Source of the DNA: Botryllus schlosseri
Taxonomy: Eukaryota
Direction: 5' to 3'
Assembly (NCBI GenBank): GCA_051294905.1
Contig: CM119372.1
Span: forward strand, 27,592,001-27,656,000
Length of the DNA: 64,000 bases
The notes beneath the pieces were generated by a model that saw nothing but the letters and a program-made list of their open reading frames with translations, was not told where the DNA came from and searched no databases. Both the position numbers and the translations under genes were made by a program. This document shows positions 4,510 to 63,439 of the stretch, piece by piece. The stretch's first letter is position 1, and each line of letters starts with the position of its first letter.

Positions 4510-7500
4510 GTGATCAGTCGCTTTAGTCAGTCGCCGAGTGCAGACGTGTATTTCTCGCTCCGCTAGCTGATTGCTTGTCATGATTACGTACAGCTTGGAC
4601 GTGCTGCGCAGTATAGGCAGTAAAGAACAGAGTAGACCAAGTCGCAAAGTGCGACGAAGACTTTACTACCTTAAGATACTGCGTACTCGCCGAGTTGGAC
4701 AATATCAACAGAAAGACTGGGATCTGCCGGGCGGCGCCGGGGACCCGAAGCCTCAACCAAGATCCCTGAGGATTAGCCTAAATGCAAAAGTTAAACTCGG
4801 AACTCTGAACACGAGAACTTTGAACTCTGTATGGCGTCAGGAAGACGCTGCCGCACTCGTGACTGACCTCAAACTTGATGCGTTTGCAATCCAAGAACAT
4901 CGCCAACACTTCACTGAACCATTCCGCGAAAAAGACCTAGGCGCAGGCATCATCATGATCCAATCACCTGCCAACCAAGGCGGAGTTGGAGGCGTCGGTC
5001 TAATCTTATCCGAGCGTTTCCACGCTGAGGCAAAGATTGACGTTATAAACAGCCGCATTATCACAGCCAGCATTCAACTCCGTCGCCGCAAACTGCACCT
5101 CGTGTGCGCGTATGGACCAACTTCTCCGAACACCACTGCCTTCCCAGCTGATACGCTCGCTTTCTACGACCAACTAGAAGGCATTCTATCAACTTACCCG
5201 CAGCGCGACATAACCATGCTGCTTGGGGACATGAATGCCACATTGGCCGAGCGCTCGCAGCGAGTTCGCTTCCCAGTTGGCAACGAGAACAGCAACTCGG
5301 AGCATTTCACTAATCTACTCGACCGCTGCGACCTCATTCCTCTCAACGCCAACTTCTCTATGAAGCCGAAGCGTAGGACGACATTTGACGGTATGCGCCA
5401 ACGCAACACACGGCTGGATTATATCTGCTGCAATGCTCCCGCACGGCGCCATTTCACGAACTGCCGAACGGTGCGCATGCTAATGATGAGCAGTGACCAT
5501 CGCTTGGTGTTGGCCACGCTTCGTGAACACCTCCCGTTCGTCCCGAAGCGCACACCGAAGGAGCCGCTACCAAATTGGTTCGATCTCAAGGACGCAGATA
5601 AGATGAATGTCTTTACCATGCACACACTCCACGCCCTCGAGATCCAAAATACTATACCGACCGCCTTTGCGCCACTTGTAGCAGCAGTCAAGGATGCAGC
5701 CCGTGAAACGCTCGGTGAGGCCCGTAGCAAGCCACGGCCAAAATTAGCCTGGGAATCCGACCCAACAGTGCTCAGTGCACGCCGTAACCTTAAGACTCTC
5801 AGACGTGCTGCGTACACCTCTGGAACACTGGACGCACATAGCGATGCTAACGAGGCAGCTCTGTACCTTGCAAACGTTTACGACGCAGCTCGCAAGGAAC
5901 GAGTCGAAGCTATTGCCCTTTCCGTGGAAAACGAGTTGGAAGCAGGCCGATCAAGAGCAGCCTGGAAAGCCATCGGTGAACTAGTTGGCTTCAAAAGGGC
6001 CCGCGTGAAGGCCTGTACGGAAGACCTCGCTGCACACTTCGAGACCCTGTTATCTACACCTGCACCGGACATCGATGTGCTCGTTGCACCGCCTTCACTA
6101 GCAGCAAATCCTCTAGCGATCAATACAGCCCTGATCACGCTAGGTGAGCTCAAGACAGCCATGCGTGGAGTACCACAATTCAAGGCCACCGGTACGGACG
6201 GCATCCCAACAGCTGCTTACACCTCGGGCGTTGCACCTGTGCTCCTCGACGTCATGAATGACGTCCTAGAAGGCGGCCCGGTGCCCCCTGAGTGGCTCGA
6301 GAGTGAAATCGTCCCAATCTACAAGAAAGGCGCTGCGAGTGACCCAGCGAACTACAGAGGCATCTCCCTGATGCAGACCGCTGCCAAGTTGTTCGACCGA
6401 GTATTGCTCCTTCGCATACGTGAGCAACTCTCTACCAAGCTCCTGAATGCTCAGAATGGATTTCGACCATCTCGCGGTACTACAGAGCACATCCTGGCAC
6501 TGCGCACAATCATTGACACCTGTCGCTCACGCAAAAAGAACGTTGTGGCCGTCTTCGTTGATTTCGCGAAAGCCTTCGACTCGGTCTCGCGCCCAGCCAT
6601 GGCAGAGATCCTCAGATTCTACGGAATTCCTGAGGTGATAACGTACGCCATTATGGCCCTCTACACTGACACACGAGCGCGAGTCCGAACAGATGACGGC
6701 CCAAGCGGAGATTTCAACACTTCGGCTGGTGTGCTTCAAGGTGACACCCTGGCACCATTCCTGTTCGTGGTCATCCTTGACTTCGTCCTGCGAACGGCCT
6801 TCCCGGATAATACGAACTTCTTTGAATGGCGGCCACGGCAAGGAACGCGCACGCGTACGACTCGCGAGGCAATACAAGTAGGTATTCTTGCCTACGCAGA
6901 CGACCTAGCCTTGCTTGCCCCGAACACCGCATCGGCACAGCGCCTCATTAACCACCTAGAGGCCGCCGCCGCTCTCGTTGGACTCCAGATCAACGCCAAG
7001 AAGACTGAGGTTCTGGCCATACCAGCTCTACCGAAGAACGCGACACCGATTCAACTGGGAGAAATCGATCTCAAGTATGTAACGAGTTTTGTGTACCTCG
7101 GTATTGACGTCGCCGACTCTGGAAAAGCGCTCAAGGCGAGGCGAGCAAAGGCCTGGGGCGCGGCAAGACGGCTACATAGCCTCTTCCATTCAAGTGCCTC
7201 AACCCAGCTCAAGACCCGTATCTTCCGTGCCACTGTCGAGCAGGTTCTTCTCTACGGAATAGAGGCACTCACGCTGACAGAGAAGCTGGCTAAGACGCTC
7301 AACGCTAACTATGACGCACTCCTCCGCTATGCACTCGGCATTCACCATCCGGAGCATATATCCACGAATGCATTGCGAGAGCTCACAGGAACGGTCCCAT
7401 GCCGTCTACTGGCTGCTGAACGACGCTTCCGCCTAATCGGCCATCTAGTGCGGCATCAAGACGAGCAACCGGCCGCCGCCATCATCAATTACATTCCGAC

Positions 7501-7718
7501 GGAGCCATGGCGCAGAGGTGGCTGGAATCGGAAAACATGGCGCTCGACAATGGAGACTGACCTAGCGCAACGCGGGCTGTCGCTTGAAGACGCGCACGAC
7601 CGCCTACGTTGGAGACGCTTAATACGAGCCTAAAACTGATTATCTTGATGTATTTTGTTTCCTGTTTTCTTTTGCCCTTTTCATTTTTATTTATCTAATT
7701 GAAAAGTCGATATATATA
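4510..7718 (+). mobile_element. Full-length RTE-type non-LTR retrotransposon
   Basis: Single APE-RT ORF, short 5' UTR, (TA)n tail, 11-bp TSD TATATGTGTGT at 4499-4509 and 7719-7729. Confidence 0.9.
4580..7633 (+). CDS. AP-endonuclease/reverse transcriptase polyprotein (RTE-like, about 1017 aa from first ATG)
   Basis: APE motifs GTLNTRTL, IQE, LGDMNA, LDYI, SDH; RT motifs PIYKKG, NYRGISL, QNGFR, FVDFAKAFDS, GVLQGDTLAP, LAYADD, YLG; no stops. Confidence 0.95.
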   Translation: MITYSLDVLRSIGSKEQSRPSRKVRRRLYYLKILRTRRVGQYQQKDWDLPGGAGDPKPQPRSLRISLNAKVKLGTLNTRTLNSVWRQEDAAALVTDLKLDAFAIQEHRQHFTEPFREKDLGAGIIMIQSPANQGGVGGVGLILSERFHAEAKIDVINSRIITASIQLRRRKLHLVCAYGPTSPNTTAFPADTLAFYDQLEGILSTYPQRDITMLLGDMNATLAERSQRVRFPVGNENSNSEHFTNLLDRCDLIPLNANFSMKPKRRTTFDGMRQRNTRLDYICCNAPARRHFTNCRTVRMLMMSSDHRLVLATLREHLPFVPKRTPKEPLPNWFDLKDADKMNVFTMHTLHALEIQNTIPTAFAPLVAAVKDAARETLGEARSKPRPKLAWESDPTVLSARRNLKTLRRAAYTSGTLDAHSDANEAALYLANVYDAARKERVEAIALSVENELEAGRSRAAWKAIGELVGFKRARVKACTEDLAAHFETLLSTPAPDIDVLVAPPSLAANPLAINTALITLGELKTAMRGVPQFKATGTDGIPTAAYTSGVAPVLLDVMNDVLEGGPVPPEWLESEIVPIYKKGAASDPANYRGISLMQTAAKLFDRVLLLRIREQLSTKLLNAQNGFRPSRGTTEHILALRTIIDTCRSRKKNVVAVFVDFAKAFDSVSRPAMAEILRFYGIPEVITYAIMALYTDTRARVRTDDGPSGDFNTSAGVLQGDTLAPFLFVVILDFVLRTAFPDNTNFFEWRPRQGTRTRTTREAIQVGILAYADDLALLAPNTASAQRLINHLEAAAALVGLQINAKKTEVLAIPALPKNATPIQLGEIDLKYVTSFVYLGIDVADSGKALKARRAKAWGAARRLHSLFHSSASTQLKTRIFRATVEQVLLYGIEALTLTEKLAKTLNANYDALLRYALGIHHPEHISTNALRELTGTVPCRLLAAERRFRLIGHLVRHQDEQPAAAIINYIPTEPWRRGGWNRKTWRSTMETDLAQRGLSLEDAHDRLRWRRLIRA

Positions 7719-36001: not shown

Positions 36002-38899
36002 TTAATGACTGCCTTGGGCTTGGTGTGAGTTAGCCAACTGAGCTATGTCAGGCTCAATACTAGATAGACATAGTCTCAGATCACCTCTTCTAGATATTTG
36101 CAATCTATTTCTTTGCTTCGTTAGTAGATGCAATACCGAACTGAAGCCTTTCTCTACCAGATATGACGACGGAAATGCTAACAGCAATAGCTTGGTTATA
36201 TCCCAAAGACGAGGATATTCAACTTGTTTCCTAGGCCAGAAATCTTCATACCCAATCTGCAGAAACAACAATTCACTCTCAAAGTCATTTTTCAAGTCAA
36301 TAAGTTCTTCAGCTACACTAGCATCACAATTGTTTACTTCAGATTTGAATGGATTTATTACCCATTCTGGTATCTTTAGCTCTTTGAGATCTATAAATCT
36401 GATCATCAAATCTTCTTTTAGTGATTGCAAATGACACGAATAGCAGTCTAAGTCAGGCTTTGTCACATGTGAATCGTCGATTTGGTTTTCTTGCAAGGCT
36501 TTCAATTTAGGAAATTGAGTCAAATCATGCCTCAGTAAAGAAGCCCGGTAAAAATCCAATTTGCTAATGAATGCCATAACAATTCCCTTTGCTTTGATGA
36601 GACACATCTTGATACCTTGCAATTTCCTGTTGACCTCATTTAACTTGCTGAAAATTTCGGACAAATACGCGACGTCTGCCCTTCTGCTCTTCAAATCGGA
36701 GCTAGATGTCTGATCCAACATTTTAAGGTTGATGAAATCGATAACAGAATCGAAAAGGTCATAGAAGCGTTCGAGACATCTGCCTTTTGAGAGCCACTGG
36801 ACTTCTGTATGAAGCAAGAGCCGCTCAAATTCTTCGTCATTGTCATGACGAAGTTTGCGAAATATGCGGTCATTCAATGAATGAGCTTTGATCGTGTTCA
36901 CGGCTCTAACAACAACCTGCAGGGTCTCATGTAATCTGTCGCTGATGTGCTTTGCTGCTAGATGTTGTCTGTGAATGACGCAGTGTATCGTGAATATGTC
37001 AGGAACTTCTTTTTTCAAATGTGCAATGAATCCTCGATGCCGTCCAACCATTGATGGTGCGCCATCTGTTGCATACGCAATGATATTCGACATGGCCAGG
37101 GTTACCATATTTCAGCAACCCAAATTCGGGACACTCTTTAGCGCCCACTATTCGATTTCAAATTGGATTGTGACGTCACACTAGCAACGCTTTGCTCATA
37201 GATCTGAGGTTGTCACGGTCCGGCTCAGGAGTATGTGGCAGTGTGTTGTGGAACCGGGACCAAAACCACATGTTTTAGCCCCCTCCCGCCCAAATAAACA
37301 ATGATTTTGAGCCCACACTATGGGGTAATCGATGCAGCTTCTGGGCGACTCCGCCTCCAATTTGAAAATGTTCCTTGGCCCAGATCAGAATTTCAAGGGC
37401 GTAGTACAGAGTTTCCGCAATGGATCCACCACAGTTCTATTGTTCAGATTTAAGACATGATATAATATATAGAATATATAAATTGGTAGGAATTTAGTGA
37501 ACAAGACATTCTGGTATTTTAGCCAAAGGATCTTCATCCGTAAACTGTCATAGGCGGGCTTGACCCTACCGACAAGAATTTAAAGCATGGGTGTTTTGGG
37601 TAGATATTTTGTAACATAAAATCTGGGAGCATATAGGATAAAGAGTTCTTATGGGAAGATGAAGTATAAATAAAGGTAAAGTCATAATAAGGAAATAAGA
37701 TTAACAAAATAATTTATAGTATAAGCAGAGGGTAATAATATAGTAGCATGAATATGACTCAGTCCAAAGCAACTCTACCATGGCATCTCACGTCGTCAGG
37801 GGTGGTAAAGATGTAGGTAGGGCGTATTAGCCTCTCCTTTTCTGTAGCAAATACCGGTAATGCTTACGGCAGAGGGATTATAACAATTTTGAGTGAGTTT
37901 AAATAAATGAACTTGAATGGGGGGTGAATTTCAACGAAAATGGTTGATTTCAAATCGTATTTTAACACACTACTGATTCGAAATCAGACAAAAGCAATAC
38001 ATTTTTGAAAAGAACTAGTTTCATACTTTAGGATTCTGCAATAAAAAAAAAAAATTGGAAAATTTTGTTAGTTCAGCTGTACCTTACGGCCTTAAAAAGC
38101 GGGACGTTTGGCTGACTGGTCGGGACGCCGGGACAAGACGTTAAAAAGCGGGACTATCCCGCCTAAAACGGGACGTATGGTAAGCCTACATGGGGATATG
38201 TTTCTGCTTGAAAAAAAAAATTCGACTGTCTTATAAATCGTCGAGCCTTTGGTGTCGACCTTTGATTGCTCCGCAAACAGAAACTCTTCTACAATTTGAA
38301 AAGTGGAGCTAACATAGCGCACATAGCCCATAAGCAAAGCTTGGTTATCGCGTAGCGTTGTCTCGTCAAGTTGCAGGGAAAATTGCGTTGTTTTGAGTTC
38401 ACTACAGAGTTTATTTTCAACGTCATTTGCCATTTCGTCTATTCGGGAAGACACAATGCTATTACTCAACGGAATTGAACTTGTAACATATTTTTGATAG
38501 CTCATCATGGTACTGATGATTTCTTTTAACAGCTGGTATAATGAGACGCTCACCAATGGTGTGCGATAATCCACATTGTGCAATGAGCTTTCATATTTTG
38601 TAAGATGCAATAAGTCCTTGCTCAACTTCCTTTCTGGATGACTTTATTAGACACCCAACAGTAAGACGTTTTTCAAGTTTTGCTTTCAGAATCCGAAAAT
38701 ATCCGATATCCTTGTTGGCTTTTTCTGGACGCCTAGTCATCAAATGATCCATCATTCTGGAAGGCTTCATACCTTCATTCGTAAACGTTTTCTCGCATAT
38801 TAAACACATCGGTAATTGTTCATTGTCCACAGATGGAATTACACCATATTTTAGGTATTCCTTTGCGTATTGACGGCATTTCCGCTTTTGAATACTCAT
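36002..38899 (-). pseudogene. hAT transposase pseudogene interrupted by a family-B MITE and frameshifted
   Basis: PMCLICEK...MKPS, LQLDETT, ATDGAPSM, HCVIHRQHL, WLSKG, FPSSYLVEKGFS, QAQGSH. Confidence 0.9.
37097..38188. mobile_element. Family-B MITE inserted in the transposase
   Basis: CAGGGTTACCAT...ATGGTAAGCCTA; CATGG on both flanks; transposase RNI-PM-SNII is joined across it. Confidence 0.82.
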
Positions 38900-48299: not shown

Positions 48300-48479
48300 T
48301 GTACTGAAAACGTACTACGACCTCAACGCAAGTTTGGTTTTTATTAACTAATGAAGACTCGAGCAACTAAACGTGGTACATACAACACTCAATATATATG
48401 GTAGGGTAAGATGCGGGTAATCAACACAAATGCGGGTAATCAACACAATTGGTGAGATCACGAGGAAATAATCACCACA
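48300..48479 (-). repeat. 3' LTR
   Basis: Identical by eye to 52408-52587; internal 19-bp duplication ATGCGGGTAATCAACACAA. Confidence 0.95.
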
Positions 48480-48559: not shown

Positions 48560-51500
48560 TTAGGCCCAATCTCCGTATCTATCAGGAGGCCGACGGATGC
48601 GAGTAGAACGACGGAGAGAAACTGCAGGCATCGGACTGCCATCGACGTCGTCTGGGCGATCTACGTGAGAATCGGTGTTCGTGCGCTCCTTCTCAACTGA
48701 CCGAATCGATTCTTCAGCCAGTTCAGGTTCGCGTTCCAGAATCTCCACATCTTCCTCAGTTTCGGACTTTGAACGCAAGGATTCTGTCCGTTCACGAGGA
48801 GGACACGGAGCAAGGTCTTTCACAGATACCGTACTTTCACGACCGTCTCGGCGCTTTACAAGAGCATACTTTGGATTTACTTCAATGAGTTCGACATATT
48901 CGCAGAGAGGATCGCTTTTATTACGGACGAATTTCCTCAGGAGCGCATCTTTGCTGGATATCATCCAATCTGGAATAGATTGACCGTGCATCGATCGACG
49001 ACAAAATGAAAAGAAACGTTCATGTGGAGTGACTCCGGTGGCAGTACATAATAATGACCTTATAGAATGTAAGGCGTCTGCTAACACCGCTTCCCAAGCG
49101 CTCTCTGGCAATTCGTGAGATGCGAGTTAAAGTTTAATTGACCTCCATATCGTCTGATTAGCCCGCTCACATTGACTGTTACCCGTAGGGTGATAGGGAG
49201 TGGTCCGACTGGTCGCAACACCCTTTCGGATCAAAAACTCGTGGACATCTTTAGAGAGAAAAGACTTTCCCCTGTCACTATGTACATAGCCAGGTAATCC
49301 AAACAAAGCGAACAATGACGATAAACAGCTAATAACAGTCTGCGACGTCATATCGGCGCATGGGAAGACGAAAGGAAAACGACTGAATTCGTCGATTACA
49401 ACAAGCAAGTAAGGTCGTTTTCCAGCGACTGGTCCTTTGAAATCTATACTCACGCGATCCCATGCCCTAATAGCTTTGACGAGAGTATAAGCTTCTGGTC
49501 TGAAAAATCGGGGTTTAATTTCAGCACATTCTGGGCAATCTCGGCACTCCTTCTTTATTTCTTCTGTGGAAAAAGGTAAACATTTAGCTCGAACGAAGTG
49601 CATCATCCGTCGCACTCCTGGGTGCGACAGTGTTACGTGAATATTCCGTAAGCTCGATCCTGTAAAGGCACAAACTCTCGACATCGAATCGGCGGCTACG
49701 TTGTCTTTACCTGGTCGATGTTTGATGCGGTATTTGAATGCACTTAATTCGAGTTTCCACAACGACAATTTTGTATTCTTTATCTTACTGCGATGAGATT
49801 TCGCGAATATGAAGGACAGTGCATTTTGATCCGTGATCAAGGTAAACGGTTTTATATGAAGTAGATAGCCCCACTTACGTACTGCTTCAATAATGGCAGC
49901 TGCTTCTTTTTCTACGGCAGCGTACCTCTTCTCATGCTTGTTCAGCGTTCTGTGCGCAAACGCTACCGGCCTCCCTCTTTGGCTGAGTATTGCAGCAATG
50001 GCGAATTCAGAAGCATCACACTCGATGGTAAATTCTTCATCCTCCAGAATACAGCCGAGACTTGACCGTAGGAGATCGTTCTTCAATTGCCGAAATGCCA
50101 TCAAAGCTTCGCTGCTCAAGGGAAATGTCAAATCGTTGTTACATAGCGGACCAATTTTACCGGAAAAATTCGATATCCACTTCGAGTAGTAAGAAAACAT
50201 TCCCAGACAACGTTTCAAACTTTTTCCGTCAGAAGGCGCAGGTAAGTCAACTAGAGGCTTCAGATGAGCAGGATCAGGCTTTATGGAGTCGTGAGCGACG
50301 AGGTGTCCCAAAATGGACAATTCCTTAACACAGAACTTGCACTTGTTAACATTCAGAGTTAGATCACAAACCTTCGCGGCGGTTATAAAAGCTTGCAAAC
50401 GTTCATCATGCTGTTGCTTTGTATCGCCATAAATGGTAATGTCGTCTAGATAAGCGACAGTGCCTTTCAGTCCGTTGCCTTCTATAAATCTGTCAATAAA
50501 GCGTTGAAACGCAGCAACTCCATTAGTGACTCCAAAGGGAAGCCTGCAAAATTGATATAGACGACCACAAGCTTCGAATGCAGTAAAGGGCTTATCATTA
50601 CTTCCAAGAGGTACCTGATGGTAAGCGGACTTCAAATCTATCGCACTGTACCATTTACCTCGAGCTACTTCATTTACGACGTTTTCAATCTTCGGAAGCG
50701 GATATGCATCTAGCGGAGTATAGCGGTTGATTGTTTGAGAGTAATCAACGACCAATCTCATTTTGTGTCTGGAGTCCTTTACCACCAATACCTGAGCTCT
50801 CCACGGAGACGAGGAAGGTTCAATCACTCCAGAATCCAGAAGTTTTGATACTTCGTCACGTATAAACACCTTGTCATCATTACTGTAGTTTCTGGACTTG
50901 GTAGCCAAGGGCTGCACGTTCCCATCTACAAACCGAAAAATACACGGCGTCTCATCCACTTTAGCAGCTATCACATTACAGGCATCAGTTGCTGCTGCAG
51001 CTGTATCAGCGCTCCCGTCAACGCTTTCATTTGTGACCATCCCATCGCCTCCGCCACTTGCTCTGCCGCTGTTGATGGTTAGATCTCCATCGCCACTGAA
51101 TTCAAAAACAACTCTTTTATGCTTTTCGAAGAAATTATGGCCTAGAACCAAATCGCAACAAAGATCGTCAAGAACGCCGAACCGAACAGACTTATATATT
51201 CGATTACCCAAATCCAGAGGAACACAAACGAAACCGTTGACTTCGGCGGCGAATTGTCCTGAAGCGAGTTTGATCATGGTTTGCAGTCCTCTGCCTTTCA
51301 ACCCAAGCGAAGCGGCTACTTTAGAATCCATGTAATTTTCCCAAGCTCCGGAATCCAGTAAGGCACGCAACTTTGCTTTACGAATGTAAGCGGGCACAGT
51401 AGTGTTGGACAGCGAGGAACAGCCATTAGATGCAAGAATGGACGAGATTCGAGGTTCAGTGACAGACGCAGCTGTTTTCACTACTTGGGATCGACACATT

Positions 51501-52393
51501 TTACTGAAATGCCCTTGCTTTTGGCACTTGAAACACCTCACGTACCGAGCAGGGCATAGGGCACGGTCTAAAACGTGACTGTTACCACAAAATATACACT
51601 TCGACGATTGACGACGGACTACCGCGACTTCACTTACGCCATCATTCGAAGATGTACAATCCGTGCGAGCCACGCTATTCACATTAGCGATCTCGCTCGC
51701 ATCATTATTCGCAGCAATGTGTGCGGATGCGCAATCTATGTGAGCCATGCTACTCACAGTAGCGGTGGTCTCGTAGGAACGAGAGAAGCACTCGGCTTTC
51801 TCCATAGTGTCTGCAACTTGAAGTGCTTTATCCAAAGATAGTTCCTCGTGTTCCAGAAGACGAAGACGTATATTTGCTGATCGCAATCCAGAAATGAATG
51901 CATCGCGTACAGATTCTTCCAAATGCGTTTCTGCGGTAACCGACTTGAACTCGCATTTCTTGCCCAATGTTAACAATTCTTGTGCAAATTCAGATACGCT
52001 CTCACTCGTCATTTGTTTTCTGGCCGAGAGGTTATGACGAGCGTAAATAGTATTGTTCTTCTTGACATACATCTTCTTCAATTTCTCCATTGCTTCAAGG
52101 TAGTTCTCCTTATCTTCGATATACGAAAATATCTCAGCAGACATGTATCCACCCATAATAGCGATCTTATTGATAGTGGAAAGTGCGGGTGAATCCGACC
52201 CACTCCCAGACGATGCGGAGCTGGCATTTCTTGATTGCTCAACGGCTTCAATATAGCTCTCCAACATACGCTTCCAATGGTTGAAAACCTTCTGCGAATC
52301 CACTGCACGTGGTAACACTTCCAACACTGGTACGCGGATGAGCTTCTCGTTGTAAGCAGCCATGTCTTTTACGGAAAAGACGACAACGTTCAT
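48560..52393 (-). pseudogene. gag-pol polyprotein with a single in-frame TAA (49127-49129) in integrase
   Basis: CFKCQKQGHFSKMC knuckle, LLDSGA protease, YLDD RT, CDASEFA RNase H, HPG...CPEC, SIDFKG, HSDRG, GNSQCER; reads SIKL*LASHELPESAWE in frame. Confidence 0.92.
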
Positions 52394-52407: not shown

Positions 52408-52587
52408 TGTACTGAAAACGTACTACGACCTCAACGCAAGTTTGGTTTTTATTAACTAATGAAGACTCGAGCAACTAAACGTGGTACATACAACACTCAA
52501 TATATATGGTAGGGTAAGATGCGGGTAATCAACACAAATGCGGGTAATCAACACAATTGGTGAGATCACGAGGAAATAATCACCACA
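52408..52587 (-). repeat. 5' LTR with TATA-like box (about 52500-52507) and AATAAA (52448-52453)
   Basis: Upstream of the gag ATG on the minus strand; identical to 3' LTR. Confidence 0.93.
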
Positions 52588-56950: not shown

Positions 56951-59438
56951 GTATACATGACATTTTGAGACCCAAGCCCAACATATTAAAAAGACTGCAT
57001 TTCGAAGATTACGATAGTATCCTACTGCACGGCACAGTTCTTCGAAAGATGTCTGACATCTGGGATATTAAATTTGGGTTAATTAAGGTTCGTCTGTGCG
57101 TTGCATTTGTACTACTGTCTGCTCCGATTGCGAGGACGGGACTATCACTGCATGGTACCGACTGCCGACTTTTTCGATGACCAAGCATATCAACGAAAGT
57201 TTTTGCCGACCGGCGACGGTTATTTTTCACCGTGGTTTTCTGCCGTCGATCGCTTTGGCACCGTATTTTCCCAGCGGTATATTGCCCACAACTTCATGTC
57301 TTCATGTTTCCCAAATAAGAAGGCGTTGGCCACGAAATGAATATATCTGAAAGGCTCGCACCCGCACGTTGCACACCCCACAACAAAAGCATTCAAAAAT
57401 TTATTCGACTATGATTTCAAGATGAGCTAGCCGGATAGAACTTATGATTAATCCATATCAATTTGTGTAATACAAACTACAAAGGTTAGCACATTTTTAT
57501 TACTAAGCCACATTTTCTGCGTATATCCTTATGGGTTACTGTACCCAACTATTCAAAGGATATAGCGCGAAGAAATTCTTTTGTGAGAAATTCAACAAAC
57601 ATTCCATACATATTACAGATTGCTCGTTTGCCGTTGTGACCCGAAATTATACCCTTTGCGACCATACTGTGGGAATCATTAAACTGGAGAAATTTGCGTG
57701 AGAGACAGTAATGGTTGCATTTATCATTATCTTTACGCTTCGTGCTAATCGAACCGTTGACAAGAGGTAGGGACCCAGTGCAGCACGTGAATTTCCTATT
57801 AGGATTATTTGAATTATTTCACGTTAAAAAAGTAACAATTATTTAGGATTTTCATCCGCACTGCAATATTTGCCATCCGCACAAGTGCGTTCCATCCCAC
57901 GGACTGAATAGCACCGATCTATACTATCTGATTTACTTACTAGCAGAGCTGGATACTATCGAAATCGACACAATCATCGTCGCGGTTACCATGAGTACGG
58001 TAAAATTTGCCATCCTGTCGTGCATTCCGCCGATTTTTCTTCTGGGTTAAAAATTACTAAGCACTGAATGGTGCAAAATAAGTAAAAGTCAGAGTAGGTT
58101 CAAGAGTTCAAGAATTGTTTGACCATGTATATTAAGTGCGGGGGCTTAGCCTCTGAATAACGTTCATGTTAATATATAACAATGGTTTACCGACATCCGA
58201 CAGATCGACCGAAATAAATGACGAACACGAGACATTGTATTCGGAGCCACGATAACGATGAATTCAATTGCTGAATGAACAATTAAAAGGTTAACTTCGA
58301 GTGATTATACAAACTTCTTAAAACAATGTAAAAACTTCGATCTGATTTAAAATGAATATACTTATTCACTACAGGTAGAGAAATGCATGTCTGTATTTAA
58401 AAATATAAATAGCTAGGGATAGTGATGATACAGATTATTATACATCGATAAACGAATTTTTAATTCATGGCGTATTAATGGTTGTTATTAATTGGTCAAT
58501 AATAATTATAGTGATTTGGACGAAATACACCATACCAATCTTTCAGGGGCAGTGTGAGACAGTGTTAGGTTTGTCTGCCTTATAAGTACAATGACTTGCC
58601 AATAAAGTAACCTTCGAAAATCAAAATAAAACTATCCTTTTCATCACTGTATACTTACTAGAAAATACACAGGTATACTATCACATTTAACACAGTCACT
58701 AGTGTCTACAATTGCCCTTTGTTATATATACTGAATAATATAAATTACTCTGTAGAACCAAGCCTTAAGGTCACTGCAACAACACATGAATGTTCATTTT
58801 CAGATTTCGTCGCGGCGAGTATACTAGGTCCAGCCTATATTAACACTGTTCGATGAGATTTAACCCGGACCTATCAGCTGAATTTGTTCTCTCTAGTAGT
58901 ATATTCATCTAAGTTCTTGAATTTCCTGAGTTTGTTTGCGTTGTAGTCCGTGGCACACAATACGTTAACAGGTGATAAGTCCCAATGAAAACCTTTAACG
59001 ATACTAATAATATTGATTGAGCATGATAATATCACAATGGCGATATGAATAGTAGTGTCGTCAAGGAAGTCCTGGTGCATCACGTGAGGTATACTCAATC
59101 ATATGACGTACTTTACATGACCTGGAAAATATCATTGATAGACTTTTAATATACAAGTAAAAATGCTTCCGCAAATGACATAAACGATATAAGTCAGGGT
59201 ATGCATTGTGAAACCTATGGTCTGCCGAGACATATTCGGAACCGGGAAGTAGTGCTAAGATTCAATGCAATATAGGGCACCGAGTCTGCTTTCTAACACT
59301 AGAACTACAGGAACTTCAAACTACCTAAACCTACCTTAAGGCTTTTTGGCGCATGTTGAATTTTCTTCAATTAAATTCATTCAACGGAGCTAAAAATCAG
59401 CACAAATCTAAACAAACGGCATCAGAAACCATTGTTTA

Positions 59439-60289
59439 TTGAGCTCACAGCTTTACGGGTCGCATTGCGTACGCGATTCTTTTACCTTCGCTGATGAGAT
59501 GCGTCGCTCACAGCTATCCGCGCGCGATAATTTCCTATGCTCATTCGACATAAAGAGCCTTTTCACCAACGTGCCACTAAATGAGACGTTGAATATTTGC
59601 GCTGATGCTCTATATAACGGTAAGCTAATACCCCCTCTTTTCTCGAGAGCTACCTTCATCGAATTGATGAGAAACGCTGTGTGTTCTGTTGAATTTAGTT
59701 TCAACATAATCATGTTCCGGCAGGTTGACGGTTTAGCAATGGGGTCACCATTGGGTCCTATCCTAGCCAATATATTTGTAGGATTTCATGAAGGTAAGCT
59801 CTTCTCTTCTTGTAGTAAACCGCCCTTATCATACCATCGCTATGTCGATGACACGTTCGTGATCTTCAATAATGAATCTGACTGTGATAGTTTCCTAGAA
59901 AATTTGAACAAATTACATCCAGCATTGCAATTCACGTCGGAAAAAGAAATCAATAACCGGCTGGCATTCCTTGACGTTCTTGTGGAGAAACGGGATGGCC
60001 AATTCCTTACCTCCGTTTATAGGAAGCCCACGTTTTCGGGTCATTACCTTCGATGGAGCTCTTTCAGTCCAAAAAGTCGTAAAATCAATTTAATCGGCAG
60101 CTTGGTTCACCGGGCGTTGGTGATTTGTTCCGAGGTCAAATTGAATAGTGAACTTGATTACATCCGTAAAATTTTCATTGACAACGGATACCCTGAGTAT
60201 GTCATCAAGCGGACAATAAATAATAAGTTAAGTCATCGGAATGATACCAAACCAAATGAAACCCCCGAAGAAGTCTTTCGTGAAAATAG
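59439..60289 (+). pseudogene. Penelope-like RT, 5' segment
   Basis: Penelope-type RT motifs; frame runs to ...EEVFRENR at the LINE junction. Confidence 0.9.
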
Positions 60290-62040
60290 AGAGAGAGAGA
60301 GAGACTTTATTTTCATCGAACCAAAATACATAACAAACGGCAGTGATGGTGGTACAGAAAATATGCGTGCACAGTATTCGGTATTAGATAGGAATGATCT
60401 ATAAGACCGTGAAGGTCATCTAGTCTGATCACACCAGCATCAAACATGTACACTTGACTCTGAACAGTCTGGCTGTAAAGAAATGTTTAGTTAAAGGAAA
60501 ATAGAAAAAAAATTAAACAATGGTAGCAAATGATCAATGAAGCAATGTCTGGGCGAGGTAGGGCAACAGTGTTAGTGTAACGACAAGAGGTGATCAAGTA
60601 GGGCTTTTTTGAATCTATTATAAGGCAATTCACGGATATGTGGTGGTAATGCATTCCAGATGATAGGTCCCGAGTAGTCGATAGATCTCTTAGTTAGGTT
60701 GCTATTGGGTGGGGGTAAGTAGATGTTTCCTTTAGACGAGGATCTCGTGTAATGGGAACGGACATGTTTAGCAGGTATGAAAAAGTCATCAAACACAGGA
60801 GGCAGACTATTGGAAAAATATTTGTGAACAACTTTTGATACTTCGAAGCGATATAGCTCATCAACTCGCAAAATTCGATGCTTACGGTAGTAAGGCGATA
60901 AATTGGTATGTAAAGGTACAGATGAGATCAGCCGTATCGCACGGTTTTGCAGGGTTCGAATTCTGCACAAAAATGTTGTGCATGCATTTCCCCATACTAC
61001 GATTCCATATTGCAGATGAGAGTGGAAAAGAGAGAAGTAGATGGTTCGTAGCACTGATCTGGAAACCAAAGATTGGAGACGGGTCATTATTCCCACACAC
61101 CGAGCTAGTTTTGATATTGTGCATTCAATATGCTGCTTCCAAGACAATTTGGAATCAATGGTGACGCCGAGATATTTTGCTGAGTCACATATGGAGATTT
61201 GTTTATGATTGATGTTCACAGTGAAATTATGACTGGCATTATTTAGAACGAGCATCTCGGTCTTATCTGCATTCAAACTTAGTTTGTTTGCTTGGAGCCA
61301 TCTCGACACTTTTGGGAGTTCCATATTCACAGATGCATGCAAACCATCGACAGTGTTGGAGGTTATGAAGAGGTGAGTATCATCAGCAAATAGTGTTGTC
61401 CGGAATAAAGATGCATTAACAATGTCGTTAATATAAATGAGGAAAAAAGTCGGTCCAAGGACAGAGCCTTGTGGCACTCCACAAGTTATATCTCTGGTAG
61501 TCGTTCTTAATGACCCCAGTTTAACAAATTGTTTGCGGTTTGCCAGGTAGCTTTCAAGTAGAGTTGCTGCAATACCCCTGATTCCATAGTGTTCTAGCTT
61601 GTATCTTAAGATTCTGTGGTTAACTGTGTCGAAAGCTTTGCGGAGATCGATAAAAATGCTGCAGCCACTTTCTTTTTGCTTGATGGTTTTGTAAAAGTCC
61701 GTTACAATTGATAGTATTGCATGGTTGGTGTTGTGGTTGGATCTGAATCCATGCTGAGTCGGAGACAGTACGGCATTCAATTCAAAAAAGTTCTTTAGTC
61801 GGCAGTCAATCAGTTTCTCAAAAACCGTGGCAAGATTTGGCAAAACAGATATTGGTCGGTAGTTAGAAATTAGCTTTTTACAGCCTTTCTTAAACACTGC
61901 TGGCATTACTCTGGCAGTTTTCAGTGCATCTGGGAAAATGCCTAGACGTATCGACTCATTAAATAAAATGCATATAACATCACCAATAATATTAAAGACT
62001 AGCTTCAGAAAGTGAGTTGGGATGAGATCGGGTCCTACTG
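60290..62040 (-). mobile_element. 5'-truncated L2/CR1-type LINE with open RT frame (60572-62040) and (CT)n tail
   Basis: VGPDLIP, NYRPISVL, QHGFR, DLRKAFDTV, GVPQGSVLGP, LFADD, YLGV; 3' end AATAAAG(TC)n on minus; no TSD. Confidence 0.92.
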
Positions 62041-62578
62041 GGATGTGTACATTCATCTACCTTGGATTGGCCCGGTTTCTTATCGATTTGAGAAACAGAT
62101 CACTTCAGCAGTCCATCGCTGTTATCCAGCGGTGAAAACCAATGTTGTTTTTACCACGATACCAATGTTTCCTGCAGTCCGAAAGGACGTTCTCCCGGCT
62201 TTACAACAAAGTAACGTCATTTATGAATTCAAGTGCCACTGCGATTGTCGGTACGTAGGGAGAACTTCCAAACGGTTGCAGGACCGAATTAAAGAACACA
62301 TCCCACCGTCTGTCAAATCATATATCTCGAAATCGCAGCATAACAATCCGCTTGTTCTAGAACATAACCAGGCCATGAGTCAAAAATCTTCTATTGGCAA
62401 ACATTTACTAGAAAATCATACGTGTGCTGCTAACTACCACGAGGACATGTTCTATGTATTGGCTAAGGGTCGCAATTTATTTCATTTGTCTGTTCTTGAG
62501 TCCACCATCATCATTATGAGTAAACCTAGTTTATGCCAACAGAAAGAATTTGTGTATCATTTGAAAATCGCGCATTAA
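62041..62578 (+). pseudogene. Penelope-like linker plus GIY-YIG endonuclease, 3' segment
   Basis: DVYIHLPWIG, VIYEFKC-CDC-YVGRT, IGKHL, LES...KPSLCQQ. Confidence 0.9.
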
Positions 62579-62720
62579 CTTGTTTGGCTTCGCTATCTCC
62601 ATGCCAACGCCTCAGTTCTCTCGTTTTCCTAACTTTGTATATTTTCTGTGTGCCGTCATAATTAGCGATATATATTGTTGCTGAACATAGTTATTCGAAT
62701 TCTCGCATTATTGCTGACGA

Positions 62721-62760
62721 TATTCCCCTGACGAGCGTCAGCCGAAAAGCTTCGGGAATA
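62721..62760 (+). ncRNA. Type I minimal hammerhead ribozyme
   Basis: Stem I TATTCCC/GGGAATA, core CTGACGA...GAAA, palindromic stem III AAGCTT, cleavage triplet UUC at 62753. Confidence 0.85.
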
Positions 62761-63439
62761 AATATGAATATTTTATTCACAGCTACTTGCAATATTTTAG
62801 ACACACCGTAGTGCAACACTTATATAACAAATCCCCGTTTTTTTTGGTGTAACATATAAGTGTTTTTCTGGTGCGCATTTGGTATTTGAGAACGTTCTTT
62901 AAAAATTTGGAGTAGGTTCCAGATCCGCTTCAGCGACATCAACATTCTTGGTTATTGCTGACATATCGCAAAGCTTGTCAGATAAGATTTGCATAATGCA
63001 ATCTCGCAACTAATCCTCGATTGGCATATTTTTATAGTATCATAATTTTGGCAAGTATAGAAAATCATTCACATTCTAAGAAAACATGCACGGACCATCG
63101 TCGACTTGTTGGTACCCTAATAGAATACTGCCTTTCAACCTGGCCAATAATATCCCCCTGGTTTTGTTTCGTTATTACATTCAACCGTCACTGCTTTCTT
63201 GTTTGTGTTGTTTCTGAAGGAAACAGCCTTCTTCGATTTTCACACGCTGTTCGCTGTGGGATATAATACCTAATTCGAAACATTTTGTTGTAAATAACCA
63301 CAGCATGCGTGACGGTAGTGCTTTAACGGGAATATGGTGATCTAAAAGTACGCGCAATTCGTTTTACATGAATCATAATAGCTCACTACAGTTATGAAAA
63401 CATATGCAGTAAACATCGTCGCGTATAGCGCAACCAAAA

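What the first reader, a model, noticed from the sequence alone, without database searches (positions are those of the whole stretch)
62713..62762. Penelope hammerhead with a 1-bp stem II whose entire loop can pair with an upstream strand (pseudoknot or switch)
Seen: TATTCCC-CTGACGA-G-CGTCAGC-C-GAAA-AGCT-TC-GGGAATA, overlapping an AATAAA. Stem II is only G62735-C62743. Its 7-nt loop CGTCAGC (62736-62742) is the exact complement of GCTGACG (62713-62719), which lies one nt 5' of stem I. The loop is also complementary to the core CTGACG itself. Known: Penelope-like elements carry minimal type I hammerheads with palindromic stem III that can act as dimers, and loop II/stem I contacts accelerate cleavage. 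Inference: the upstream strand forms an activating pseudoknot and/or a decoy that stops loop II mispairing with the catalytic core.
Basis: partly seen in the sequence, partly recalled or inferred. Interest (0 to 1): 0.8.

Follow-up and report, generated by a model that had tools for sequence, protein, structure and literature searches.

The report
Pseudoknotted hammerhead in Penelope retrotransposon clade
A small self-cutting RNA motif at the end of a Penelope-type jumping gene has swapped its second stem for a six-base-pair knot, and matching base changes across many related element families show the knot is real; this fold is known from microbial ribozymes but was not found described for these animal retrotransposons.

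Summary
The motif is a type I hammerhead in the terminal repeat of a truncated, LINE-interrupted Penelope/Poseidon-type retroelement.

The upstream-strand/loop II pairing is real but is 6 bp, not 7. In 12 family representatives 72 of 72 cells pair, and 5 of 6 pairs change on both sides. The seventh pair forms in only 5 of 12. Related elements from other hosts keep the knot with different sequences. The 11 knotted elements form one branch (100/99) against 32 labelled long-stem II.

The decoy role is at most a side effect, because the loop/core complementarity is lost in several families. Stem III stays palindromic, pointing to dimer-gated cleavage 3-21 nt before the start codon. Cleavage was not shown.

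A 1-bp stem II with a 6-bp pseudoknot is already tested (Perreault 2011) and crystallised (Zhan 2024). I found no report of it in Penelope elements, but Lunse 2017 was unreadable. The scan noted the knot earlier in a sister family of this genome (e1-7786987). Verdict: new variant of a known kind.

The parts
59451..60292 (+). 5'-truncated Penelope-like element, RT part (first piece)
   Evidence: 94% identical to positions 1375-2216 of intact unit L108; RT-like frame 59412-60404
62040..62779 (+). Second piece of the same element: GIY-YIG tail, stop at 62576-62578, 3' UTR/pseudo-LTR with the hammerhead, and the first codons of the next ORF; the copy ends at 62779
   Evidence: 95% identical to L108 2213-2951; weak Pfam GIY-YIG hit, E 5e-4, below cut-off; family match ends at query position 200
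62713..62718 (+). Pseudoknot 5' strand (GCTGAC)
   Evidence: pairs with 62737-62742; 72 of 72 cells paired, 5 of 6 pairs with compensatory change in 12 representatives
62719..62719 (+). Nearly invariant G after the hexamer; Watson-Crick partner of C62736 only in this subfamily, possibly a non-canonical cap pair
   Evidence: G in 12 of 12 rows of A4; standard pair in 5 of 12; A in L080 and L155
62721..62727 (+). Stem I, 5' strand
   Evidence: core-proximal 4 bp 97.7% paired, 3 of 4 pairs with changes on both sides
62728..62734 (+). Catalytic core C3-A9 (CUGACGA)
   Evidence: C3-G8 paired in 12 of 12 (C-G 9, U-A 2, U-G 1)
62735..62743 (+). One-pair stem II (G62735-C62743) closing a 7-nt loop: linker base 62736 plus pseudoknot 3' strand GTCAGC 62737-62742
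   Evidence: G-C in 11 of 11; A-U in L111
62744..62753 (+). GAAA core strand, palindromic stem III region AAGCTT (62747-62752), and N17 = C62753; predicted cleavage between 62753 and 62754
   Evidence: palindrome kept as AAGCTT or AATATT, as 8- and 10-nt palindromes, or as palindromes with a central mismatch; site inferred from hammerhead numbering, not observed
62754..62763 (+). Stem I 3' strand (62754-62760) and 10-nt leader containing AATAAA (62757-62762)
62764..62779 (+). Start codon and first five codons (MNILF) of the element's ORF, cut off by the end of this copy
   Evidence: same start as the intact 845-aa protein of L108; M1 nearly invariant among 41 aligned homologues

Best explanation
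It is a pseudoknot-type, dimer-gated type I hammerhead that marks one clade of Penelope/Poseidon-type retroelements. Step 1 (supported by covariation): stem II is a single pair, and six bases of its loop pair with a hexamer ending 8-11 nt before the core. This helix replaces helix II and ties it to stem I. Step 2 (inferred from published pseudoknot hammerheads): the knot holds the core in the active geometry. Where loop and core happen to be complementary it also out-competes an inactive hairpin. Step 3 (inferred from the conserved palindrome): stem III is stable only when two copies in a tandem transcript pair through it; the knot stays within each copy. Step 4 (inferred): cleavage after C62753-equivalent sites cuts tandem transcripts into unit-length RNAs that begin 3-21 nt before the start codon. 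The window's own copy is a truncated, interrupted, solitary copy and probably does nothing in cis.
For: Pseudoknot: 72 of 72 cells paired, 5 of 6 pairs changed on both sides, 0 of 500 shuffles as high, slid registers 13-33% paired. Pairs (upstream/loop): GCTGAC/GTCAGC, GCCGAC/GTTGGC, ACTGGC/GCCAGT, ACTGAC/GTCAGT, ACTAAC/GTTAGT, CGTGCC/GGCACG in this genome; TCTGAC/GTCAGA, TCTGAC/GTCGGA, TCCGAC/GTCGTA (one mismatch), ACAATT/AATTGT, GCATT/AATGC in metagenome contigs. Own-partner score 63.0 against a mean of 48.1 for permuted partners, 1 of 200,000 permutations as high, 11 families. Core under hammerhead-specific selection: C3-G8 becomes U3-A8 in two amplified families. Stems I and III covary. 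Clade: 11 knotted elements on one branch, 100/99, against 32 others. Energies: knot duplex -10.5, core/loop hairpin -5.4, monomer three-way fold without knot +1.7, nested dimer -12.1 kcal/mol. Precedent: a one-pair stem II with a 6-bp pseudoknot cleaved at >1.2/min, fell about 20-fold and >100-fold on shortening, and was rescued by compensatory change (PMC3088659, passages). A PK hammerhead with G10.1-C11.1 as its only standard stem II pair cleaves at 16/min (PMC11300833).
Against: No cleavage was observed. Two single-cell RNA runs of one study (about 3-4% of each read) gave 515 and 322 reads, many crossing the predicted site, and no place where many molecules begin or end; such libraries would hardly show a cut. 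In the Anolis Poseidon element the hammerhead cleaved only with protein added, was dispensable for insertion in vitro, and no RNA-seq reads ended at the site (PMC11167929). All 32 distinct copies of this family examined extend 21 nt or more beyond the site, so the RNA that is reverse-transcribed is uncut or re-ligated there. In a nested fold, stem I plus the inactive core/loop hairpin (-12.2) is close to the minimum (-13.1), and ViennaRNA cannot score the knotted state. The families are related, so the shuffle statistics overstate independence. The representatives were chosen by me as well-preserved members; decayed copies that break the knot exist.
Confidence: 0.72

Rival explanations
1. Conformational switch or decoy. 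The selected feature is the choice between the knot (on) and a core/loop hairpin (off); the upstream strand is a copy of the core that draws the loop away from it.
For: Upstream CTGACGA duplicates the core in the window. The core/loop hairpin is 86.7% paired over 12 rows and scores 5-5.5 of 6 in F1, F2, F5, F6 and M2. It appears in the nested minimum-energy fold. Several loop changes keep it as G-U.
Against: It scores 2.5-3.5 of 6 in F3, F4, M1, M4 and M5 and is broken in F8, where the knot is intact. Its pairing is no better than shuffled, although an invariant core cannot covary. A pure decoy would be unnecessary where the loop cannot pair with the core, yet the upstream match is kept there.
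Confidence: 0.13
2. The knotted fold is real but serves as a structural or protein-binding signal next to the start codon and the reverse-transcription start. Self-cleavage is slow, protein-dependent or incidental.
For: Anolis Poseidon hammerhead: inactive without protein and not needed for insertion in vitro (PMC11167929). Uncut RNA is present in reads. All examined insertions include the whole motif. Metazoan PLE hammerheads are slow in vitro (PMC4209133).
Against: C3-G8/U3-A8 covariation, an invariant G12/A13/A14 strand, an NUH triplet and a stem III palindrome are kept; a mere binding site would not need them.
Confidence: 0.11
3. The knot is strong enough for the monomer to cleave, so the palindrome is a relic and no dimer is needed.
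For: PK hammerheads are fast and stable (PMC11300833). Longer stem III regions in L110, L111, L125 and F8 could close 2-4 bp as monomers.
Against: In the window the monomer stem III is one pair with a 4-nt loop (three-way fold +1.7 kcal/mol). The region is self-complementary, or so apart from a central mismatch, in the families checked. Reads from solitary copies cross the site uncut.
Confidence: 0.04

Closest known systems
Pseudoknot-stabilised hammerheads of types I-III, including the one-base-pair stem II ribozyme (Perreault et al. 2011, PMC3088659; passages read)
   Same: One-pair stem II and a 6-bp pseudoknot joining the stem I and stem II sides; about 40% of their hammerheads are predicted to have such a knot.
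   Different: The tested one-pair example is a metagenome-derived type II. Here it is type I, in an animal-type retrotransposon, with a stem III that needs a partner. The word Penelope does not occur in their main text.
PK hammerhead (Zhan et al. 2024, PMC11300833, PDB 8YDC; parts 1-3 of 6 read; first described by Weinberg et al. 2015, not read)
   Same: G10.1-C11.1 as the only standard stem II pair, a 6-bp pseudoknot replacing helix II, a partner strand on the 5' side of helix I, and non-canonical caps at the helix ends.
   Different: There the partner strand is the loop of an extra hairpin (helix IV) with an A-minor linker. Here it is joined to stem I by only a few bases, leaving no room for helix IV, and stem III is a short palindrome.
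Minimal hammerheads of metazoan Penelope-like elements (Cervera and De la Pena 2014, PMC4209133; parts 1-2 of 4 and supplement parts 1-2 of 3 read)
   Same: Type I, in the pseudo-LTR, palindromic stem III, proposed dimer cleavage, U3-A8 core variants, thousands of copies.
   Different: All 56 representatives in their Fig. S3 have helix II of 3 bp or more, mostly with an extra base after A9. A review by the same group says these motifs usually lack the tertiary interactions (PMC6155905, passage). Here there is a one-pair stem II, no extra base and a covarying pseudoknot.
Short-stem-III hammerheads of Penelope-like elements that cleave as dimers (Lunse et al. 2017; not held; title and a summary seen in PMC6765202)
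   Same: Penelope association, short palindromic stem III, dimer cleavage.
   Different: Unknown: I could not see its consensus figures or supplements, which may already contain this knotted form.
Type I hammerheads in 5' UTRs of chryso- and fusariviruses (PMC13725137; passages)
   Same: Type I with a 1-2 bp helix II; one cuts 7 nt before a start codon; linked to translation initiation.
   Different: They have a long helix III, no recognised tertiary contact and low rates (about 0.01/min for the 1-bp form). Here there is a knot and a minimal stem III.

Membership tests
Type I hammerhead ribozyme | Core CUGANGA / GAAA / NUH at a three-way junction, with the ends in stem I | tested here: met
   stems I-III 95% paired with covariation; C3-G8 paired in 12 of 12
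Type I hammerhead ribozyme | Match to an Rfam hammerhead model | tested here: not met
   0 matches at gathering threshold; no hammerhead family at E<=10. This says the models miss the short-stem form; it does not test function
Type I hammerhead ribozyme | Self-cleavage 3' of N17 | not testable with these tools
   Only single-cell and one off-target raw RNA run were available; no end pile-up
Pseudoknot hammerheads (Perreault 2011) | Watson-Crick helix of 4 bp or more joining the stem I side and loop II | tested here: met
   6 bp, 5 of 6 pairs with compensatory change
Pseudoknot hammerheads (Perreault 2011) | Rate depends on the pseudoknot (disruption and rescue) | not testable with these tools
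   needs in vitro kinetics
PK hammerhead of Weinberg 2015 / Zhan 2024 | One standard pair in stem II, loop forming a 6-bp pseudoknot | tested here: met
PK hammerhead of Weinberg 2015 / Zhan 2024 | Partner strand presented by an extra stem-loop (helix IV) with an A-rich linker to helix I | tested here: not met
   the hexamer ends 8-11 nt before the core, most of which is stem I: works like it, not a member
Metazoan PLE min-HHR (Cervera 2014) | Located in the pseudo-LTR of a Penelope-like element | tested here: met
Metazoan PLE min-HHR (Cervera 2014) | Minimal, palindromic stem III | tested here: met
Metazoan PLE min-HHR (Cervera 2014) | Helix II of 3 bp or more, extra base between positions 9 and 10.1, no tertiary contact | tested here: not met
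   one pair, no extra base, pseudoknot against their 56 representatives
Metazoan PLE min-HHR (Cervera 2014) | Cleavage as a dimer | not testable with these tools
   only nested energies
Penelope/Poseidon-type EN+ PLE (host element) | Single ORF with RT and C-terminal GIY-YIG, in tandem units forming pseudo-LTRs | tested here: met
   845-aa ORF, 2,722-bp unit; Pfam RVT_1 E 1e-9 on the full protein, weak GIY-YIG on the window piece
Penelope/Poseidon-type EN+ PLE (host element) | DKG motif, CCHH in the endonuclease, no extra zinc-finger in the RT-EN linker (Neptune/Nematis), not DKT (Hydra) | tested here: met
   read by eye from the translation: PDKGTG, C732/C734/H753/H788 invariant in A1, no CxxC in the linker; criteria from passages of PMC8557442
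Penelope/Poseidon-type EN+ PLE (host element) | Groups with named Penelope/Poseidon references in an RT tree | not tested
   no named reference sequences were in the trees

The most novel reading that the evidence does not exclude
One clade of animal Penelope elements evolved, once, a fast pseudoknot-type hammerhead out of the slow long-stem form while keeping the dimer lock. Only tandem transcripts are then cut, efficiently, 3-21 nt before the AUG. The nearly leaderless 5'-OH product (or its circle) is the mRNA for the RT-endonuclease, translated cap-independently as reported for mycoviral hammerheads, while uncut RNA is the template for insertion. The knot-versus-hairpin choice may add an on/off control in the largest families.
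Probability: 0.2. Interest if true: 0.72.

Novelty: new variant of a known kind. Interest (0 to 1): 0.45.

Why it matters
What Penelope hammerheads do is an open question. The described metazoan forms are slow, usually lack tertiary contacts and were dispensable for insertion in one in vitro system.

A clade carrying the architecture of the fastest known hammerheads gives a clean test case. It offers natural compensatory variants, an intact tandem unit, and a cut site a few bases before the start codon.

It also shows that searches requiring a stem II of several pairs, and the Rfam models, miss a motif present in thousands of copies in one genome. The fold itself is not new chemistry or a new ribozyme class.

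Tried and rejected
Rfam: no hammerhead match; the three weak hits are unrelated families far below their gathering scores.

Seven-pair pseudoknot: rejected.

'GGC-GTCA-GCC' normal stem II: not found. The G-variant of this family could form a second pair (G-G...C-C), which would shorten the knot to 5 bp. This alternative is open for that subfamily only.

Non-circular permutation (PMC10085705, passages): the core blocks are in ordinary type I order, so rejected.

Upstream CTGACGA as a second catalytic core: by eye no stem II or stem I fits around it, and it is not conserved in F4, F8, L111 or L125.

AATAAA as poly(A) signal: not conserved; no poly(A) tails among the loose ends shown (29 more were not shown).

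Other searches: a looser genome pattern gave mostly noise; viral contigs gave no relative of the protein and no motif match. The first DNA alignment A2 put L110, L155, L111 and L125 out of register, so these four were left out of the pair counts and scored by a register rule instead.

Expression: no RNA holder was listed on record among the indexed runs. The raw single-cell runs are uninformative on cleavage. 41-43% of their reads run into unrelated flanks, so they come largely from truncated copies in host transcripts, and one abundant read class has a mutated GAAA.

Literature: Lunse et al. 2017 could not be read. Searches for a prior report of a knotted Penelope hammerhead found none, but they cover only the open library.

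Full report
**Verdict.** The motif is real, the pseudoknot is supported by comparative evidence and is 6 bp long, and the decoy reading is secondary. It is a new variant of a known kind: a known fast hammerhead architecture in a retrotransposon group whose hammerheads were described as usually lacking tertiary contacts. Activity, dimer dependence and biological role are inferred, not shown. Interest 0.45.

**1. The observation.** All coordinates check out. Stem I has 7 Watson-Crick pairs, stem II is G62735-C62743, and the loop is the exact complement of 62713-62719. The loop also pairs 5 bp with the core, which is what nested folding predicts. The window holds no other hammerhead-like core with this geometry; the loose pattern gives 3 matches against 2.1 expected. 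Rfam does not detect it.

**2. The host element.** The motif lies about 135 nt after the stop of a GIY-YIG frame. A search of the 495-Mb genome listed 44 matches from 40 scored of 871 candidates, most 96-99% identical. One tandem unit (L108, spacing 2,722 bp) has an intact frame whose first ATG starts an 845-aa RT-endonuclease. It has 1,087 homologues at E<=1e-30, and the start methionine is nearly invariant in 41 aligned proteins. By DKG, CCHH and the lack of a linker zinc finger it is Penelope/Poseidon-type (read by eye; criteria from passages of PMC8557442). The window copy covers 59451-60292 and 62040-62779: 5'-truncated, split by a LINE-like insert, and ending 26 nt after the predicted cut.

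**3. Covariation within the genome.** A generic core pattern has 8,593 matches against 106 for the control. Eight families were resolved from listings and fetched loci. Twelve representatives were chosen, eleven from this genome and one metagenome locus. The hexamer/loop helix is paired in 72 of 72 cells. Five of six pairs show changes on both sides, 0 of 500 shuffles reach this, and slid registers give 13-33% (an earlier 11-row set gave 4 of 6). Family F8 replaces GCTGAC/GTCAGC by CGTGCC/GGCACG in the same register. The seventh pair is standard in 5 of 12; genome-wide, 82 of 4,230 GCTGACG-type copies have the Watson-Crick form. C3-G8 is paired in 12 of 12, including two U-A families. Stems I and III covary. 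The rows are related and were picked as well-preserved members, so the shuffle numbers are not probabilities.

**4. Other hosts and phylogeny.** Protein-guided scans returned 79 metagenome and 32 MAG-labelled loci, and none in viral contigs. The closest loci whose contig shows a hammerhead carry the same design with other sequences: TCTGAC/GTCAGA (L109, L112, L118, L123 and others), TCTGAC/GTCGGA (L155), TCCGAC/GTCGTA with one mismatch (L110), ACAATT/AATTGT with an A-U stem II (L111), and GCATT/AATGC (L125). Own partners outscore permuted partners, 63.0 against 48.1, with 1 of 200,000 permutations as high (11 families, F8 not included). Trees used 43 rows: 3 from this genome and 40 of the 111 loci. 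The others were left out because I saw no hammerhead on the contig or too little protein was covered. The 11 knotted elements (43-65% identical to L108) are one side of a branch with support 100/99. Of the other 32 (32-41%), 31 have a 4-7 bp stem II by rule, and their loops pair at most 5 nt, usually 2-4, with the upstream region; L151 was labelled by eye. The tree is midpoint-rooted without named references, and the search was seeded from the knotted clade, so a single origin is likely but not proven.

**5. Decoy or switch.** The core/loop hairpin is possible in the largest families (5-5.5 of 6) but weak or broken in F3, F4, F8, M1, M4 and M5, where the knot persists. The upstream strand is therefore selected as the loop's partner.

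**6. Mechanism.** Shown by sequence comparison: the knot, stems I-III, the core pair and the palindrome. Taken from the literature: such knots are needed for speed in a one-pair stem II ribozyme (PMC3088659, passages); a PK hammerhead crystal structure shows the 6-bp knot replacing helix II above G10.1-C11.1, capped by non-canonical pairs, at 16/min (PMC11300833, parts 1-3); viral one-pair forms without a knot are slow (PMC13725137, passages). Inferred: the invariant G after the hexamer caps the helix. Also inferred: a monomer cannot close stem III (+1.7 kcal/mol without the knot), whereas two copies can pair through AAGCUU (-12.1 for the nested dimer). Cleavage would leave 3-21 nt before the AUG. 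The AATAAA is part of that leader and is not conserved.

**7. Against.** No cleavage was seen. Raw single-cell reads (515 and 322 laid, from about 3-4% of two runs of one study) cross the site and show no end pile-up; a third raw run of another organism gave 4 partial reads. These libraries, and solitary copies, would not be expected to show a cut. All 32 copies examined extend past the site. In the Anolis Poseidon element, reverse transcription starts internally, the hammerhead needs the protein, it is dispensable for insertion in vitro, and it cuts 26 nt downstream of the start codon (PMC11167929, parts 1-2 of 4). The position before the AUG is therefore not universal among PLEs.

**8. What is known.** Both ingredients are in print: pseudoknot hammerheads with a one-pair stem II, and dimer-type PLE hammerheads. 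I did not find them combined. None of the 56 PLE representatives in the supplement of PMC4209133 or the motifs in File S2 of PMC8557442 has a stem II under 3 bp, though those searches used descriptors that would likely miss it. A review states that PLE motifs usually lack tertiary contacts (PMC6155905, passage). Five paper searches found no report. Lunse et al. 2017, the largest survey of such variants, was not readable, and its figures or supplements may show this form. Other papers seen: PMC10085705, PMC6765202 and PMC12192606 (passages), and bioRxiv 10.64898/2026.07.22.740005 (part 1 of 5). It was seen after my tests and agrees with them, but is not independent support.

Noticed in passing
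window 62754-62766; L108 207-218; L034, L044, L087, L233, L235, L123, L125: The element's start codon lies 3-21 nt after the predicted cut in the families checked (10 in the window, 9, 14, 21, 21, 19, 12, 3, 21 nt); in L123 the ATG is inside the stem I strand.
   Followed up: partly
window 60293-62039 (ORF 60572-62056, - strand): About 1.75 kb of a LINE-like RT element (motifs read by eye, not scanned) is inserted into the Penelope copy between its RT and endonuclease parts.
   Followed up: partly
L230, L232, L237 (family F7); L234-L236 (family F8): Two amplified sister families have a U3-A8 catalytic-core pair; F8 also has a wholly different pseudoknot sequence and an 8-nt stem III region with a central U-U mismatch.
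   Followed up: yes
L001-L060, F1-family copies: 3' ends of 32 distinct copies lie 21-67 nt past the cut site (30 copies) or run on through the tandem (2), in clusters, like the known PLE 'tail'. Inverted pairs of copies are frequent.
   Followed up: partly
L188-L219: Penelope-like elements, several with typical long-stem hammerheads, sit in contigs labelled as bacterial or archaeal MAGs; most likely eukaryotic contamination (inference).
   Followed up: no
window 48300-48479 and 52408-52587: A 180-bp, 100% identical direct repeat flanks a 1,088-codon frame on the - strand (49127-52393): probably a recently inserted retroelement.
   Followed up: no
window 4571-7633 (+) and 36002-37111 (-): Further long open frames (1,020 and 369 codons), the first in a GC-richer stretch; not examined.
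   Followed up: no
L108 1-273: Single-cell RNA reads pile on the pseudo-LTR (mean depth about 70-110 and 40-65 on one strand) with little over most of the ORF, and two unique flanks account for many of them.
   Followed up: partly
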